DNA of 64,000 bases from assembly GCA_951406725.2 (NCBI GenBank), contig OX597820.1, positions 6,138,001-6,202,000 of the forward strand, in the 5' to 3' direction. Below are positions 4,530-63,908 of this stretch, piece by piece. This DNA comes from Octopus vulgaris (Eukaryota). The position numbers were made by a program, and so were the translations under genes. Within the stretch, counting starts at the first letter, position 1. Every line of letters begins with the position of its first letter. The notes under the pieces are model-generated. The model was not told the origin of the DNA. It ran no database searches and saw only the letters and a list, made by a program, of their open reading frames with translations.

Positions 4530-4725
4530 CAAGACCTGGAATGTGGGCGACGGGGTTAAGTCGATTACATCGAAACCAGTATCCGACTGGTACTTATTTT
4601 ATTGACTCCGAAAGGATGAAAGCCAAATTTTGACATCGGTAGAATTTGAACTGAGAACGTATGGACGGACGAAATGCCGCCAAGTGTCTCGTCCGGCATG
4701 CCAAAGACGCTGCCTGTTCGCTGCT
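4530..4725 (-). mobile_element. tRNA-derived SINE with Nin/Deu-like domain
   Basis: Reverse complement has B-box GTTCAAATTC and TTTCATCCTTTCGGAGTCAATAAAAATAAGTACCAGT. Confidence 0.75.
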
Positions 4726-11427: not shown

Positions 11428-11799
11428 TATATATATATACATGTATCGGTAACCAATAACATACTTTCCTTACAGTTTTATGAATACGGTGAAAGTATTG
11501 ACTTGTCTTTCCTTCATGACATATCGTTGAATGGAGGAGAGAGGGAATTGTTATCAGGCCTTGGCAATTGGTTCTACGAATGGCACAACAGGGATGGGTA
11601 AGTTACTGTATCTGAAATAGAGTCGACTAACAACGAAAGAACCCAACCAATATACAAAGACACGCACACACTCACACATACACACATACACGCACACAGA
11701 CACGCGCATAGATACTTATAAGTGTATATGTGCGTGGCTGAGCGTATGTGCATATGTTAGCGCATGCGTGCATGTGCGTGTTCATCGGTATTGTCTTTA

Positions 11800-12213
11800 T
11801 GAAGGCAGCGAGCTGGCAGAAACGTTAGCGCGACGGGCGAAATGCTGAGCGGTATTTCGTCTGCCGTTACGTTCTGAGTTCAAATTCCGCCGAGGTCGAC
11901 TTTGCCTTTCATCCTTTCGGGGTCGATAAATTAAGTACCAGTTAAGCACTTGGGTCGATGTAATCGACTTAATCCGTTTGTCTGTCCTTGTTTCTCCCCT
12001 CTATGTTTAGCCCCTTGTGGGTAGTAATGAAATAGGTATTTCGTCTGCCGCTACGTTTTGAGTTCAAATTCCGCCGAGGTCGACTTTGCCTTTCATCCTT
12101 TCGATAATTTAAGTACCAGTTACGCAATTGTGGTCGATGTAATCGACTTAATCCCTTTGTCTGTCCTTGTTTCTCCCCTCTATGTTTAGCCCCTTGTGGG
12201 TAGTAATGAAATA
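11800..12213 (+). mobile_element. Nin/Deu-like SINE with tandem ~180-bp body, 13-bp TSD
   Basis: Head GGCAGCGAGCTGGCAGAA; unit GGTATTTCGTCTGCC..GAAATA present twice; GGTATTGTCTTTA at 11787-11799 and 12214-12226. Confidence 0.9.
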
Positions 12214-12780
12214 GGTATTGTCTTTAGGTGAGTCGTTCCCTGCACTAACCATCAGACGGTCTCTTTTCTCCCCAGGGCATCACCCATCTGGAAAAGGTGA
12301 AAAGAAAAAGAAAACACCTTCGACCACTACCATTCCTCCAAACCATTAACAACAACAACAGTAGCAACAACAGCAACAGCAGCAGTAGCAACAGCATTAC
12401 CAGCAGTAATGTCAACCGTCACAACAACACTGGTTGATGTTTTTAGCTGCTCCATCGTATTCCGCTGACTTTAGAGTCCAGATGATGGATAAATATAAGC
12501 ATTCAGACATGCACGAATCTCTTCGAAATCTCATCTGGGGACGTCAGAGAAAGTTTGTCAGATTTTGAGACTTCAGGCACGATATCTTTCATATTGGATT
12601 TGCTTTTCAGTTTACTCCAAATCATTTCGGTATACTTTCCAGAAAAGACCTTCTACTTTATGTTTCATGTGGTCTAACACACATCATATATGTATATATA
12701 TATCAATACATACGTGTATGTGTATGTATAATTGCGCACATATATATATATATACACGCGCACACACACACATATTTTTT

Positions 12781-16297: not shown

Positions 16298-16865
16298 TTT
16301 TGTATGTATATATGTATGCATGAATTCATGAATGTATGGATGTCTATTTATCATTCTACAAACACACACATACACATCAGTGAATGTGTGTGTGTGTGTG
16401 TGTGTGTGTGTTACACATACATAAAAACGGAAAATAAAGACAAAAGCAAGCTGCGAAAAATCCTTGACTCTTTAATTAATGAAGTCTATAAAATAATTAT
16501 AAAGATGGTGGAAAGGTTGGCGAGTTGGGGGGACGAGTGAGTATGCGGGTGTTGTGATGGTAGAGTAGGTGGTTGTGGTGGGGGTGATGTTGATGATGAT
16601 GGCTACAGGGGCGGAGAGAAGGGAGTCAGGCGACGTGAAGTTATACGTTAATGAAATTAATAGAATCAGAACGGAAATTGATTGGTTTGGTGATGGTGAC
16701 GGTCTTCATGAAAAAGAGATGCGATAGAGATGTTGGTGATGTTGATGATGGTAGTGGTGGTGGTGGTGGTACTGGCGGTGGCGCTGGTGGTGGTGGCCGC
16801 GGCGGTGGTTGTTGTATTTGTTTGTTTTAATGGTTAATTAGTGGTGTAGCGATATTTCTGAATGT

Positions 16866-17095
16866 TGGCGGCAAGTGGCAGAATCGTTAGAATGCCGGAC
16901 AAAATGCTTAGCTGTAATTTCTTTCGCTTTCATGTTCTGAGTTCAAATTCCACCGCGGTCGATTCTGTCCTTCATCTCTTTCGTGTTCGATAAAGCACGT
17001 ACCAGTGAACTACTGGGGTCGATGTAATCGACTTAATTTCCACCCCTTCAAAAACAATTCAAGTGTTTTGCCATATTGCCCTAAAGGGGAAACAA
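16866..17095 (+). mobile_element. Nin/Deu-like SINE
   Basis: GGCGGCAAGTGGCAGAATCGTTAG..GAGTTCAAATTCC..GGGGTCGATGTAATCGACT. Confidence 0.75.
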
Positions 17096-19261: not shown

Positions 19262-20165
19262 ATTTAGGTGCCGGGAGATGTGGGCACCTGGCACCTAGAA
19301 TGTCGTAAGGCTCTCGCAGCCCCAGTCGGGCAATGGAATCGGTGGATGTTCCGATTTAGAAGTTTATAAAGGATTTAGTGGCGGGAAAGTGCAACGACAT
19401 TCTCTGGAAGACTCTGGGCGCCGACGAGAACGAACTGACAAGTCTGTTCCGGAGGACATTCCGGTCGGGAAATATCATGGATAATCTCCAGATGTCCTTG
19501 GCCTGGCAGTGCTACAAGGGTGGGGATGGCGCGCGACCGGTCTGAGATAAACTATATGGGCACGGATGTGCGGTTAGACGGACTTGTCCGAGGTGCACGC
19601 AGAGTGAGGGAACCGTTCTCATGCACTTGTTCACAGTCCAGGCCTTGCTCACTTGGCGAACAGCTGCTGTCATAAGCGGGACAGATCTGTCTATCGGCCG
19701 AGTCAATTAGTGATGATTGCCCCCACCACCCACCTTTAATCGGACAGGCAAGGCAGTTCTTTTCCTGATGGCTGTGGAGAAAGAGGTTGTCTAGCAGACA
19801 AGGCTGAATGGCATGAGGACAGTTACATTCTTGTTTTGTAGAATTCTCATTTACTTCTTGGAGTTTCATTTAAAAGGAAATTGAGAGTGGAGAGGGAAGT
19901 GCTGTCCTCGAGTGAGTTTATAGAAAGGTGGGTGAAAGTTGCAGAAATGGCAAGAGTGAATTGTATCTCCTTAAGTGTAGAACTCTGAATCGGAGAGGGC
20001 ACCTGCTCCAAGGGTTTCAGGAAAATCTCGGTGAGTGGAGTTCTTCGATTATCCCTTGAGGTCATCCTGTATCCGGAGGGCTGCATCTCTATCATCCTCT
20101 CCTCGCCTTCTTTCACTTTAAACCTTTGTATACTACGTACATTTCCCTTCCTTTATTTTGTATAC
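19262..20165 (+). mobile_element. Old diverged Tx1/L1-like LINE 3' fragment
   Basis: GCCTGGCAGTGCTAC..GATAAACTATATGGGCACGG..TGTCCGAGGTGC..ACCGTTCT homologous to the zinc-finger region at 32901-33030. Confidence 0.75.
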
Positions 20166-20187
20166 CGTGTATACATACATTTCGCTC

Positions 20188-20422
20188 TCAGGATCGTTAA
20201 CAGGCCGGGCGAAATACTTAGTGGTATTTCGTCTGCCGCTACGACCTGAGTTCAAATTCCACCGAGGTCGACTTTGCCTTCCATCCTTTCGGGGTCGATA
20301 TATTAAGTACCAGTTACGCACTGGGGTCGATATAATGGACTTAATCCATGTGCCTGTCCTTGTTCGTCTCTTCTGTGTTTAGCACCCTTGTGGATAGTAA
20401 AGAAATAGGTATTTCGTCTGCC
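20188..20422 (+). mobile_element. Nin/Deu-like SINE, ends by re-entering its internal unit start
   Basis: Same subfamily as 11800-12213; ends GAAATA-GGTATTTCGTCTGCC. Confidence 0.85.
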
Positions 20423-20429
20423 CTTTTCA

Positions 20430-20592
20430 GTTGTCTAATAATTTCCTGATTATTCTGGCCGTGCCAAGGAGGCAAACCTTTGTAACAGTTCTACTGGGCA
20501 CTCTTTTCCAATTTCCTTTATATTCCTCTTGATGCCTTCTGATTCTGTTCCCAAGGACCCAACAATAGTTGGTACTGTCTTCACCTTCTTCA
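20430..20592 (-). mobile_element. R4/Dong-like LINE C-terminal fragment
   Basis: MKKVKTVPTIVGSLGT..LLQ, then after a frameshift GTARIIRKLL; parallels IPIIVGALG..LLGTAHILRR at 37722-38075. Confidence 0.7.
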
Positions 20593-23404
20593 TTTTCCGT
20601 GGCAAGATGGCTGAATTGTTAGCGTTTCGGACAAAATGCTTAATGCCATACACATACACATACATACAAACATACATACATACACACACACATACATACA
20701 TACACACACATACATACACATAAATACACACACATATATACACACACATACATACATATATACACACACATACATACATACATACACACACTCATATACA
20801 CACATACATACATAAGTTAATAGATATTTAAGTTGATACTCTTAACGATATTTTGCCCAGTCTCTGACGATAATGACGAGAAGGAACACATTGTATAATG
20901 TAGTCCTGGATACACTGTGGCTGAATAAACCGATCGAATTGTCATAGCTAGAACATAGAAGATAATACGTCTTGTGGCTAAGGAGTGACTCAGGGCAAGA
21001 CAACTAGGAAAACATATTGAAGAATGTAGTTCTAGATAGACCGTGCCTGAAAGAATGATGAAATAATATAGGATGGGGTTCATTTTGATAAAATCAAATC
21101 CAAGTCGAATTACGGATATTCGACGACAGCAACAAGGAACTGAGTTTTAAAGGGGATAATTCCAATGAAGGAGAGTTATGTCATCGTTGCCAACCGTGCT
21201 TCAACTCTGATTAAAAGTTTAAACCGAACTCTCTAATAATTGCTGAAGAATCATATAAAATAAATGTTCAAAACTGTCTTAGTGTTCGTGATGTCTTTAA
21301 TTAGTTGTGACAACCCCAATTAGTTGTGACGTCCATAATTAACTGCGACGGGTCCTATTAAGCTCGTGCTTGATAAAGTTAAAATATGCAAGATTAAGTG
21401 AAAATTTTGATTATTTATTTATTAACATCAACAATTATTGTGAGGTTTGCACTTAAAATACCATTGGTGACCCTCGATGATGAATAATTTCACTTGGATT
21501 ATCAAAATTATTTGTATTTTCCTCGTGTTTGTGGTTAGAATCTCTGTTGGCGATTGATGAAGACCAACCTTCGTTTGGCTAACAGAATTGTTAATTGTAT
21601 ATTACTAATGCCCACACTTTTAAAATCTTTTGGACATTCTGCTCGGATGGAACGTTGTGACTCATACGCTATGGAAACCGGGTAACCGGACTTGTGAGTA
21701 TTCCCAGGACTTGAACCAGTAATATCCAGGGATTGATAATGGTGATGATTCCTGGAGACCAATGTTCTTTGGTCTATCAAAATTATTGTTGTATATTCCC
21801 CATGTCTTCATTTACAGTTATTAACAATTCCTGGCGATTAACCTTCCTTTAGTTACCAAAATTGCACCGCAAAATCAAAATTTCTGTTAATGAGAACCTA
21901 TTGAAATGCCCTGATAAAAATAGTAGTAGAAGTCCCTTTGAAATAAAAAAAAATACGAGGCGGCACCTTAGATAATGTAGTCCCAGGTCTTCACAAAAAT
22001 ACTGGGTTGTCACGGCGAGAATCCCTTTATGCATGCGTCTGCGAGCATCAGAATTGATCTGGTGTTTAACGTCAATGTTTACTGTATTCCTGGTTACGGT
22101 TTAACTCCACTTCCCAACCTCGCTCATCTCTAGTAGTCATCTGCTAGGCAAATGGTGTTGGTGTGGTTATGTCTCCATGACTTAGCGGTTCAGTTAAAGA
22201 AAGATCGACAGAATAAGTACCAGGCTCAAAAATAAAAATGAAAAAGCCCTGGGGTCGATTCATTGTTTAAGGTGGTGCCCCAGTATGGCCCAGTACGAAT
22301 GAAAGAAGTAAAGGATAAAAGATAAGACTGATATCGAAACTCGTCGTCTGTTCAATAATCTTTCGTTGATTGTTTGCTAAATATGAACATTTCTCATGAC
22401 CGATGCCTCGAGAGAATCTTGTGACCAGTTCTAACGGTCTTCGGAATATTGTGTGGTGAATATTCCTTGAATATTGCTTAAGGTAATCTGTAAAATGGTA
22501 CGAGTGACATTAACACGTATGTATATGTGTGTGTGTATGTATGTATGTATGTATGTATATATAGGTATGTACATATATATATGTGTGTATGTATATATAT
22601 GTATGTATGTATGTACATATAAATGTATGTATGTACGTACATAAATATGTACGAGTGTGTGTGTATGTAGATATGTATGTACGTATATATATATATATAT
22701 GTGTGTATGTATATATGTGTATGTATATACATATATATGTATGTATGTATGTACATAAATATGTACGAGTGTGTGTGTATGTAGATGTGGGTGTATGTAG
22801 ATATATGTGTATGCATATATATATATATATATAGATAGATAGATACACACATACATACACATATATATACATACACACACATACTCATACATAATTATCA
22901 TTATATATATACATACAAATCTATCTACATGTATTTATCTGTGTGTATCTGTGTGCGTATGTGTGCATTAGTGTGTATATGCGTATGTGTGTTCATGTGC
23001 TTCGTTATAAGTGTGTATATGTGGCCGTATATATTCCGTGTGTTCGTCTCTCTCTCTGCCTACGCATCTTTGTGTGTGCCAGGGGCCATGTGACTCAGAA
23101 AGACAATTATGGAGAATCACACAATAAATATTCAAAAGTTACCATTTGCTAAGAGAATCTGACAAGTTTAACAGAAGAAGGCGAAGTCTTCATCGTTGCA
23201 ATTCCATCAAAGCTACTACCATGTTATGGAAGCTATGAAAATGGTGACCTTACAGTTTGGTGGAATCTTCTCTATCATCATTGCTAATTCTAACCAAATA
23301 GCAAGACAACTGAAGAATACAAATAACCATAAAAGCATTAACACCGCAAAGAGAAGCATCAACACCCATAGACATCACTTTACCGTCAGCGCTATGAAGC
23401 ATGC

Positions 23405-25800: not shown

Positions 25801-26007
25801 AAGTGGCGAAGTGGCAGAATTGTTAGCACGCCGGATTAAATGCTGAGCCGCGTTTCGTGCGTCTTTACCTTCGGGCTTCAAATTCCACTGAGGTTGACCT
25901 TGCCTTTCATTCTTTCCGGCTTGATATAATAAGTACCAGTTGGACACTGGGGTCGATGTAATCGACTCACCCACTCCCTAAAATCTCAGGCCTATCGTAG
26001 AAAGGAT
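25801..26007 (+). mobile_element. Nin/Deu-like SINE in (TAT)n
   Basis: GTGGCAGAATTGTTAGCACGCCGG..GCCTTTCAT..AAGTACCAGTT..GGGGTCGATGTAATCGACT. Confidence 0.75.
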
Positions 26008-35609: not shown

Positions 35610-35785
35610 AATGATTTCAAATTTTAGCTTAAGGTCAGCAAGCTCATCGAACCCCAGTACTCGACTGGTACCTATTTTATCGACCCCGAAGGATGAAAGG
35701 CTAAGTCGACCTCGGCGGAACGCGAACTCAGAAAGCAAAGTCAGAAATCCTGCTAAGCATATTTTCCGATGTGCTAACAATTCTC
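35610..35785 (-). mobile_element. Nin/Deu-like SINE
   Basis: CTGGTAC..TATCGACCCCGAAGGATGAAAGG..GTCGACCTCGGCGGAA. Confidence 0.7.
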
Positions 35786-59989: not shown

Positions 59990-61380
59990 GACATTGTCTG
60001 GGGAAGTGGTGTGGGCATCTTTTCTCTAAATTTGGCAGAAGACCAGGAATTCTGAGGGGAGGAGTAATCGAATATATTAACCCCAGTGCATGACTGGTAT
60101 TTGATTTTATGAAACCGAGAGGGTAAAAGCAAGATTGACTTCAGCGATATTTGAAAGAGCGGGAAAAAATGGTGCCAAGTATTTTTTTCCCGAAGCACTA
60201 ACGATTCTGCTAGCTCGACGCTTTACCATTATTATAATTCTTTCTACTGTTGGCACAACGCCAGTAATCTTGAGGGTTGAGGGATAGTCGAGTACAAGGA
60301 CCCCTGTGCTCAACTGGGCTCTATTTCATCGACCCCAAATGAATGCAAGGCAAAGTTAACCTCTGCAGAATTTGAACGTAGAATGTGAAAAGCCGGAAGA
60401 AATGGGGTTTAGCATTTTGTCCGACGCACTAGATTCTACCAGCTCACCATTATTTCTTTAATAATCGTAAAAGTAATGTACGTGTTTGTTATCTACTCAC
60501 CGCGGTTGTTGACAAAATGTGTTGTGGCTTCTGACTCTTCTTCTGAGATTTTCGATGCAGATGTGTCCAAGAAAGGAGATCTTTTCTTTCGCCTCCTCCT
60601 TGAATATCGGTTTTTGACAAACTTTTTCCGTGAATATATAGAATTGTCCAACTCTGGTACAGAGAAAGAAAATATATTTGTTAATCAGAAGCAAAATAGC
60701 CAAGAAATAATGAACTGTTTTGTCATCTTCATAAACTATATATGGGTTTCAAATTTTGGCACAAAACCAGCAATTTCGGAGGAGTTGGGGCTAAGTCGAT
60801 TACACTGAACCAAGTGATCAACTAGTACTTATTTCATAGACCCCTGAAGGAGATGAAAGTTAAGTTGACTTCGGCGGAGTTTGAACTCTGAACATTAGGA
60901 TACGAAATGCTGATAAGCATTTTCCCTCGGGGTGCTAACCATTCTTCCACCATTCTAATCACCACCTTTCATAAACTAGAAATTCATGTATGTTTCTAAG
61001 ACACAGGGTTTTTTGCGGAGGGGTGAGCTTAGTTGGAACAATCTACCCAATATTTGACAGGTCTCTTATTCGCCCAATTCTAAAAAGATCAGGGCGAAAT
61101 GAGGGAGCAGACCATTCTGCTGGAAGCTGAACTCAGAACATGGGAAAACATAACTAAATACAGCAGGACTTCGTCCCTGTCTGCACTCGGCCGATATATT
61201 TTCCCATAAAATATATATATTAGTTTCTCACATTAGCAGAAGGTAAGAAGTTTTGATAAGTAAAAGCATTATAAAGGATCAGTTCGACCCATTATATTAC
61301 TGGTATTTCTTTATAAAAATGTCCCTGTTCTTTAAGTATCAAAAGCTGAGTCGGATTCGGTGAGATTTGAACTCACGATA
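59990..61380 (-). mobile_element. Cluster of about five degenerate Nin/Deu-like SINEs in the same orientation
   Basis: Repeated CTGGTA..GACCCC..GATGAAAG..GGAATTTGAACTC-like motifs at ~60090, ~60320, ~60830, ~61050 and ~61300. Confidence 0.6.
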
Positions 61381-63149: not shown

Positions 63150-63348
63150 TTTCTACTCTAGGCATGACATTTTGAGGGTGGGGCCCAGTCGATTAGATCG
63201 GCCCCAGTGCACAAACGGTACTTAATTTATCGACCCCGAAAGGATGAAAGGAAATTTCGACCTCGGCGGAATTTGAACTCAGTGCGACGGGCGAAATCTC
63301 TCTAATCACTTCGTCTGGCGTGCTAACGTTTCTGCCAGCTCGCCGCCT
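63150..63348 (-). mobile_element. Nin/Deu-like SINE
   Basis: Reverse complement GGCGGCGAGCTGGCAGAAACGTTAGCACGCC..GAGTTCAAATTCCGCCGAGGTCG. Confidence 0.8.
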
Positions 63349-63719: not shown

Positions 63720-63908
63720 AGCTGCTGGCAGAATCTTTAGTATTCTTAAAGGTATTTCGTTCGTCTTCATGCTCTGAGTTCAAATTCCACCAAGGTCGAC
63801 ATTGCTTTTCCAGTTCAGGTTCCACAAAATAATTATGAGTAAAGTACGTGTACTCTCAAAATGACTGCACACCGTAGAAATTGCTGGCCTTGTGCCAAAA
63901 CTTGAAAA
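63720..63908 (+). mobile_element. Degenerate Nin/Deu-like SINE
   Basis: GCTGGCAGAATC..GGTATTTCG..GAGTTCAAATTCCACCAAGGTCGAC. Confidence 0.65.

What the first reader, a model, noticed from the sequence alone, without database searches (positions are those of the whole stretch)
11787..12226. SINE whose 3' end rejoins the loop of its own head hairpin: candidate circular-RNA, rolling-circle retroposition
Seen: head plus two ~180-bp units, with the second unit restarting at GGTATTTCGTCTGCC. That point is the loop edge of the hairpin GGGCGAAATGC/GTATTTCGTCT between the A and B boxes, where an anticodon arm would lie. One 13-bp TSD (GGTATTGTCTTTA) encloses the whole array, and its first 6 nt equal the unit start. 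The two units share variants absent from the copy at 20188. Inference: the RNA is cut in the anticodon-like loop and ligated to its 3' end (tRNA-splicing/RtcB-like), or RT re-primes through GAAATA/TATTTC complementarity, giving multimers in one insertion.
Basis: partly seen in the sequence, partly recalled or inferred. Interest (0 to 1): 0.7.

Follow-up and report, generated by a model that had tools for sequence, protein, structure and literature searches.

The report
SINE that rejoins its own family
A short jumping repeat forms thousands of seamless head-less tandem units, likely because the last letters of its RNA pair with the same letters inside copies of its own family and start copying there, and the circular-RNA idea is unlikely.

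Summary
The structure is real: TSD, head, two ~184-bp units restarting at GGTATTTCG, TSD. It is a family trait: 18,932 of 59,934 exact tails continue this way. The circle reading is not supported. (i) A sister tail variant restarts mainly at another site, inside the A box (odds ratio 329), so the restart follows the RNA's last letters, not the loop. (ii) Many arrays end in an older subfamily's tail, almost only in last place. (iii) Roughly 40% of first/second unit pairs come from different templates. (iv) Copies inserted into resident SINEs at this site with a true TSD exist (53 versus 4 control hits). The tail is shared with an RT/zf-RVT LINE. Best reading: RNA-end pairing primes insertion into resident family members, the 5' end joins through the shared head, and arrays later grow by local DNA exchange (0.5). 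A reverse-transcriptase template jump within one insertion remains live (0.27). The architecture is already published for a clam; the tail-dependent site choice is the new part.

The parts
11787..11799 (+). left copy of the 13-bp target-site duplication; starts GGTATT like the unit
   Evidence: sequence
11800..11803 (+). 4 filler bases before the head; a short run ending in AA precedes many heads of this family
11804..11850 (+). tRNA-like head with A-box-like motif (about 11814-11828); position 11818 is the restart site used by the sister tail variant A2
   Evidence: sequence; box names from recalled consensus
11834..11863 (+). predicted 13-bp stem with 4-nt loop (11847-11850); unit restart at the first base after the loop
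   Evidence: prediction
11851..12034 (+). unit 1: core 11851-11970 with B-box-like motif (about 11876-11888) plus tail A 11971-12034
11992..12034 (+). part of tail A shared with the 3' end of an RT/zf-RVT (L1/Tx1-type) LINE
12035..12213 (+). unit 2, head-less, 6-bp deletion and 1-bp insertion; 5' haplotype differs from unit 1, 3' haplotype shared and private
12214..12226 (+). right copy of the TSD
20189..20422 (+). second tail-A copy in the window: 5'-truncated head, unit 20223-20407, then 15 nt of a second unit, then LINE sequence

Best explanation
This is one copy of a very abundant tRNA-headed SINE that shares its tail with a LINE, and its head-less tandem units likely arise when the letters just past the RNA's tail (GGUAU) pair with the same letters inside a resident family copy and prime reverse transcription there, the new copy's 5' end then likely fusing through the shared head so that no second head or inner TSD is left. 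Shown: precise junction, tail-dependent restart site, foreign tails only in last place, nested insertions with true TSDs at this base, LINE-derived tail. Inferred: that the seamless class forms by the same DNA-level route as the nested class; that the RNA end comes from read-through of already compound copies, which would make the process self-reinforcing; that longer arrays, and probably the shared 3' part of this dimer, come from later local DNA exchange.
For: Tail-by-site table from whole-genome exact counts: A1 18,932 loop site versus 150 head-15 site of 59,934; A2 460 versus 1,199 of 14,132; odds ratio 329. Outside SINEs the letters after the tail also depend on the tail (A1 GG 31, AG 4 of 68; A2 GG 6, AG 13 of 40; p 3e-5), and target information lies at +1..+5 with little upstream (45 A1, 20 A2, 69 B sites). 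Nested head+TSD+head at this site 53 hits versus 4 at a control site; of 26 distinct nested loci 18 have a downstream tail|GGTAT junction and 6 repeat the resident's non-consensus letters on both sides (further cases L002, L026, L069, L197). In 41 chimeras the last (tail-B) core has twice the non-CpG changes of the first core (5.44 versus 2.71, p 2e-6); in 44 A-only arrays there is no such gap. A B tail is followed by a core start in 1 of 238 cases. No re-pasted chimera clades: 2 of 820 pairs share 2 rare alleles. Chimera heads are more diverged than solo-A heads at positions 31-47 (0.082 versus 0.045, p 0.014, one of four windows). Internal units of long arrays are near-identical (13 of 36 pairs under 2%) while first and last never are (0 of 22), the mark of later duplication. 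Precedent for precise 5' joins through upstream homology: R2, over 80% precise (PMC3774820, passages).
Against: Nested copies are rare against seamless junctions (53 versus 18,932 exact hits); my rough estimate is that 5-nt pairing alone could yield that many nested copies, so they do not prove that the seamless class is DNA-level. CpG decay of the last core is not twice that of the first core as an older resident predicts (1.47 versus 1.09 of 8 sites, n 55; solo B1 2.86; paired 1.2 versus 1.0, p 0.32). Chimera heads carry an A-type allele at the full A rate (14 of 41; solo A 19 of 51; solo B 2 of 38) and unit 1 does not share the resident's letter at position 14. TSD age is inconclusive: older when anchored on the right (0.166 versus about 0.10, p 0.002), not when anchored on the left (p 0.16-0.31). 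None of 61 tail-A-like LINE ends (18 of 30 and 43 of 60 loci) lands at either SINE site. 34 of 43 first/second unit pairs share the 78/81 haplotype (chance about 51%), more than random pairing of templates gives.
Confidence: 0.5

Rival explanations
1. Template jump inside one insertion: the reverse transcriptase starts on one SINE RNA (tail A or B), and on reaching GGUAUUU (or AGAA at head position 15) its cDNA end pairs with the 3' end of a second tail-A RNA and continues; repeated jumps, sometimes back to the same RNA, give n-mers.
For: Explains the tail-by-site table, B only last, A-type heads, equal CpG decay of first and last core, no resident letter at position 14, and the excess of same-haplotype dimers. 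Inter-SINE template switching is the usual proposal for hybrid SINEs (PMC4824008, PMC4758252, passages).
Against: Does not produce the nested TSD class. Needs old tail-B RNAs to be primed and then handed to a tail-A RNA very often (34 chimeras versus 26 solos among 60 classifiable of 84 B1 tails). No clear pile-up of 5'-truncated copies at the site (74 head-less starts, most near position 1 keep head remnants). Slightly older heads and TSDs in chimeras.
Confidence: 0.27
2. A few compound source copies (head, A units, last unit) are read through by Pol III and pasted whole or cut short after an A tail; no new junctions are formed.
For: One locus has a 22-bp TSD around head+unit+29 nt of unit 2 (L072, 1 of 13 partial ends). 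The GGTAT end of A1 RNA is most simply read-through.
Against: No fixed unit-1 versus unit-2 differences at sites 17, 78, 110 (p 0.8, 0.18, 0.47); no linkage between upstream unit and B unit at six sites (46 pairs); several B subtypes in last place; 2 of 820 terminal pairs share 2 rare alleles; last core twice as diverged privately.
Confidence: 0.1
3. One reading: the RNA is cut in the hairpin loop, ligated to its 3' end (RtcB-like) and copied as a rolling circle.
For: Exact restart at the loop edge. This dimer's pattern (shared private 3' part, different 5' part) fits one and a half turns on a circle followed by a switch to a head-bearing RNA. Up to about 55-60% of dimers exceed chance haplotype sharing.
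Against: Second restart site set by tail variant; foreign last units; heads nearly always present; last unit differs from internal units; nested TSD class; no hammerhead core motif CTGANGA on either strand, no ribozyme or tRNA match in Rfam; stem-loop unlike an anticodon arm.
Confidence: 0.06
4. A SINE-targeting LINE endonuclease (one subfamily per site) picks the sites by protein-DNA recognition, with ordinary nested insertion and later loss of the 65-bp head+TSD repeat.
For: The LINE relatives show recurring targets (9, 5 and 3 ends with the same next five letters). Head+TSD repeats are unstable: up to 21 copies (L336). Precedent SINEU/Tx1-Mar (PMC4494074, passages).
Against: 0 of 61 sampled LINE ends at the SINE sites (only the best zf-RVT hits were sampled, 90 of 150 listed); little upstream target information; contraction would have to be about 99% complete while expansions persist.
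Confidence: 0.07

Closest known systems
TSD1-(SINE)n-TSD1 arrays of the blood clam Scapharca broughtonii (PMC11481361; section 15 and passages)
   Same: One TSD pair around a first unit with full tRNA head and further units with the same head truncation; mixed-family arrays occur.
   Different: There inner units have truncated tails and about 3% of SINEs are in arrays; here tails are complete, 32% of exact tails continue, and the restart depends on the tail variant. The passages read offer unequal recombination between TSDs as mechanism.
SINE-derived satellites (sSat) of squamates (PMC10702118; part 1 of 5 and passages)
   Same: Tandem units shorter than the SINE, leading and trailing units distinct, longer arrays more uniform.
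   Different: Described as satellite nuclei with varied unit borders; no fixed retroposition junction or TSD analysis in the passages seen.
SINEU with Tx1-Mar LINEs of crocodilians (PMC4494074; passages)
   Same: SINE mobilised by a Tx1-type LINE, inserted at fixed sites in another repeat, stacking in tandem.
   Different: Target is a DNA transposon, tandem copies are separated by a TSD, and the LINE shares the target; here the target is the SINE's own family, joins are mostly seamless, and sampled LINE ends do not share the site.
R2 elements with upstream 28S sequence on their RNA (PMC3774820; passages)
   Same: Homology between cDNA end and upstream target gives precise 5' junctions, with a minority carrying direct duplications.
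   Different: Autonomous, restriction-like endonuclease, rDNA target.
Metazoan non-LTR retrozymes (PMC7761336; passages)
   Different: Circles are made by hammerhead self-cleavage; no such motif here, and the element has a Pol III-type head and LINE tail.

Membership tests
tRNA-derived SINE | A- and B-box-like motifs in a short non-coding head | tested here: met
   Motifs at about 11814-11828 and 11876-11888 (sequence; consensus recalled); no intact tRNA by ARAGORN
tRNA-derived SINE | TSDs and high dispersed copy number | tested here: met
   13-bp TSD; 59,934 and 14,132 exact tails
tRNA-derived SINE | 3' tail shared with a partner LINE | tested here: met
   About 43 nt shared with ends of RT+zf-RVT LINEs
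tRNA-derived SINE | Pol III transcription | not testable with these tools
   RNA runs were unstranded and collapse paralogues
MetaSINE superfamily | 66-bp Meta-domain after the head | not testable with these tools
   Resemblance recalled only; the domain is in a figure not held; supplement PDF gave no hit and one file was not searched
Tx1 clade (partner LINE) | RT phylogeny with Tx1; AP endonuclease | not tested
   Only RVT_1 and zf-RVT domains and recurring targets seen; no tree built
non-LTR retrozyme | tandem hammerhead ribozymes | tested here: not met
   No CTGANGA on either strand; no ribozyme among 6 weak Rfam matches
non-LTR retrozyme | abundant circular RNA | not testable with these tools
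   Junction is genomic; no RNase R data
tRNA-splicing-type circle | anticodon arm geometry and a single cut site | tested here: not met
   13-bp stem, 4-nt loop; second restart site at head 15
TSD-(SINE)n-TSD arrays (clam type) | one TSD pair, full first head, identically head-truncated later units | tested here: met
SINEU/Tx1-Mar type targeting | partner LINE inserts at the same site as the SINE | tested here: inconclusive
   0 of 61 sampled LINE ends at the sites; sample limited to top zf-RVT hits

The most novel reading that the evidence does not exclude
The SINE's RNA carries its own guide: read-through letters past the tail pair with a site inside the family, steer the LINE enzyme into resident copies and create compound copies whose RNA carries a longer guide, a self-reinforcing loop in which two tail variants have each locked onto their own site. 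This would be RNA-programmed target choice by a non-autonomous retroposon and a direct route from SINE to satellite.
Probability: 0.4. Interest if true: 0.7.

Novelty: new variant of a known kind. Interest (0 to 1): 0.45.

Why it matters
How LINE enzymes choose a site and finish the 5' junction is still open; here a natural experiment with tens of thousands of events couples a few RNA-end letters to a site, and gives both seamless and TSD-bearing outcomes at one base. It also shows a concrete path from dispersed SINE to tandem repeat and a way for SINE subfamilies to swap tails. Practically, junction-spanning reads from this family would be miscalled as circular RNA.

Tried and rejected
RNA evidence: no run on record as RNA was listed as holder; three raw RNA runs and one contig set showed the family in both orientations, joints 12213 to 11818 (the A2 junction, which is genomic) and no start or end peaks: no evidence either way on circles. 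Allele or orthologue test with four contig sets was swamped by paralogues; no flank-to-flank joint was shown, so empty or monomer alleles remain untested. Test for RNA-templated letters at the TSD start: weak (12 differing positions, right copy matches GGTAT in 6, left in 3). Idea of a hidden long TSD (shared 5' part of units 1 and 2): rejected, similarity is even along the unit in 19 pure dimers. A-to-I editing trace: no A>G excess. Position-specific alleles 24T and 172C were partly artefacts of query choice; loci L001-L030 were dropped for those tests. The 15-nt end at 20422 is uninformative, since the flanks are non-contiguous LINE pieces. Meta-domain check failed for lack of the figure. 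Literature searches found no paper on this octopus-type family's arrays or on circular SINE RNA; most subscription papers, including the original octopus SINE papers (recalled, not seen), are outside the library.

Full report
Observation. The window holds a 13-bp TSD at 11787 and 12214 around a 47-nt tRNA-like head and two units of 184 and 179 bp that both begin GGTATTTCGTCTGCC. Folding places the restart at the first base after a 4-nt loop on a 13-bp stem. The units share a private 3' haplotype (2 of 445 units) but unit 2 begins with a different, recurrent 5' haplotype. The window lies in G000 (2.8 Gb, 227 contigs), an octopus-type genome by inference.

Family-wide picture. I split the element into head H, core C (120 nt) and tail A (64 nt); other subfamilies have the same head and core with a different tail B. 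Exact counts: 59,934 A1 tails, 18,932 continuing GGTATTTCG. In a junction-blind sample of 64 elements, 20 were plain monomers, 13 ended in a B tail, 14 ran on into a further core and 17 were A-only arrays of 2-5 units (longer arrays are over-sampled). The grammar is H(CA)n with an optional last CB; a B tail is followed by a core start in 1 of 238 cases. Of 378 tail-to-SINE joins, 303 are exact at core position 1 and 42 at head position 15 (many loci were fetched by these junctions, so precision is inflated).

The restart follows the tail, not the loop. A sister tail, A2 (14,132 exact copies), restarts 1,199 times at head position 15 inside the A box and 460 times at the loop site; A1 does so 150 and 18,932 times; odds ratio 329. 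The same coupling holds at non-SINE targets: after A1 tails GG 31 and AG 4 of 68, after A2 tails GG 6 and AG 13 of 40. Rebuilt empty sites carry information at +1 to +5 and little upstream. I infer that the RNA's last letters pair with the primer strand. Direct proof that these letters are RNA-templated is weak.

DNA-level insertion at this base happens. Old head + GGTATTTCGTCT + up to 12 nt + new head gives 53 hits against 4 for a control site. Of 26 distinct loci among the 30 fetched, 18 have a downstream tail|GGTAT junction and 6 repeat the resident's non-consensus letters on both sides, that is a true TSD; outer TSDs of the resident survive in several. This class is small beside the seamless one, and by my rough estimate chance 5-nt pairing could account for it.

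Are array units clones? They are closer than random (0.078 versus 0.097; 0.073 versus about 0.10 in 19 pure dimers), but 9 of 43 first/second pairs differ at a two-site haplotype where chance gives 49%, so about 40% come from different templates and the rest are compatible with one template, later conversion, or same-age sources. In arrays of three or more, 13 of 36 inner pairs differ by under 2% while 0 of 22 first-last pairs do: inner identity is younger than the insertion, which points to later local duplication. There are no fixed unit-1 versus unit-2 differences at the main sites, no linkage to the B unit, and no clades of re-pasted chimeras, so a few dimeric masters do not explain it either.

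Seamless chimeras: resident hit or template jump? Among 84 B1 tails, 34 were chimeras, 26 solos and 24 unclassified, mostly 5'-truncated. The last core has twice the non-CpG changes of the first (n 41, p 2e-6) and chimera heads are somewhat older near the junction, which favours a resident. Against this, CpG decay is similar in first and last core, heads carry an A-type allele at the full rate, position 14 of the resident is not shared, and TSD age depends on the method. I could not settle it: 0.5 versus 0.27.

Partner LINE. A zf-RVT search gave LINE ends that share the last 43 or so nt with tail A in 18 of 30 and 43 of 60 loci; one ORF has RVT_1 and zf-RVT. None of the 61 is followed by either SINE site; several share other recurring targets. 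Other agents of this scan report a LINE at a SINE-head site; I did not reproduce that in 90 of 150 listed hits.

This locus. Its TSD begins GGTATT, as expected for priming by an A1 RNA end. The shared private 3' part with a foreign 5' part fits a dimer later homogenised or rearranged by local exchange; a same-template re-priming cannot be excluded for this one copy.

Comparison. The architecture is published for the blood clam (PMC11481361, section 15) and resembles squamate SINE satellites (PMC10702118, part 1 and passages). Fixed-site stacking is known for SINEU/Tx1-Mar (PMC4494074, passages) and homology-guided precise 5' joins for R2 (PMC3774820, passages). Retrozyme membership fails (no hammerhead; PMC7761336, passages). 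A 2026 repeat annotation of Octopus vulgaris does not mention SINE arrays in the passages seen (PMC13282606). Ten searches found no description of tail-dependent self-joining; supplements and subscription papers I could not see may hold one.

Verdict. Real, abundant and mechanistically informative, but not a circular-RNA retroposon on present evidence: a new variant of a known kind, already noted at other loci by this scan. Interest 0.45.

Noticed in passing
L336, L345, L330, L348, L338 (G000 C5, C10, C4, C11, C6): The 65-69-bp head+TSD repeat left by nested insertion has expanded into mini-satellites of 3 to at least 21 copies.
   Followed up: partly
L189 (G000:C1:15779642-15780176): 101-bp tandem of core end + tail B + TSD, six extra copies, behind a five-unit array.
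   Followed up: no
L392-L451, L351-L380: Tail-A-like LINE subfamilies have recurring targets (9, 5 and 3 ends with the same next letters), and a tandem array of about 5.4-kb LINEs lies at G000:C2:73.04-73.07 Mb.
   Followed up: partly
L151 (G000:C1:4674500-4680000): Head + ten or more nearly identical A units + one B unit; the recent expansion shares its 5' variant with the B unit.
   Followed up: partly
B1-tail loci L171-L200, L261-L320: Solo B1 copies have lost 2.9 of 8 core CpGs, B1 units at array ends only 1.5, near the unmethylated baseline: joining is tied to low-methylation copies.
   Followed up: partly
window 19364-20620: Two non-contiguous minus-strand LINE fragments flank the 20189 copy; the right one reads like a restriction-type endonuclease end of Dong/R4 (recalled motif).
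   Followed up: no
window 4553-4724, 16850-17037, 25806-25967, 35645-35784, 60286-60445, 60792-60949, 63187-63348, 63751-63850: Older copies of the family with B-type tails, 74-83% identical; two sit in (ATT)n runs.
   Followed up: partly
L015: Array ends in core position 64 joined to an inverted head fragment.
   Followed up: no
L155 and L160: Trimer and dimer with the same flanks and head variant 2.6 Mb apart: a duplicated locus that differs in unit number.
   Followed up: no
L047, L096, L138, L170: Full-length copies stacked right behind B tails, a second kind of tandem (whole head kept, short spacer).
   Followed up: no
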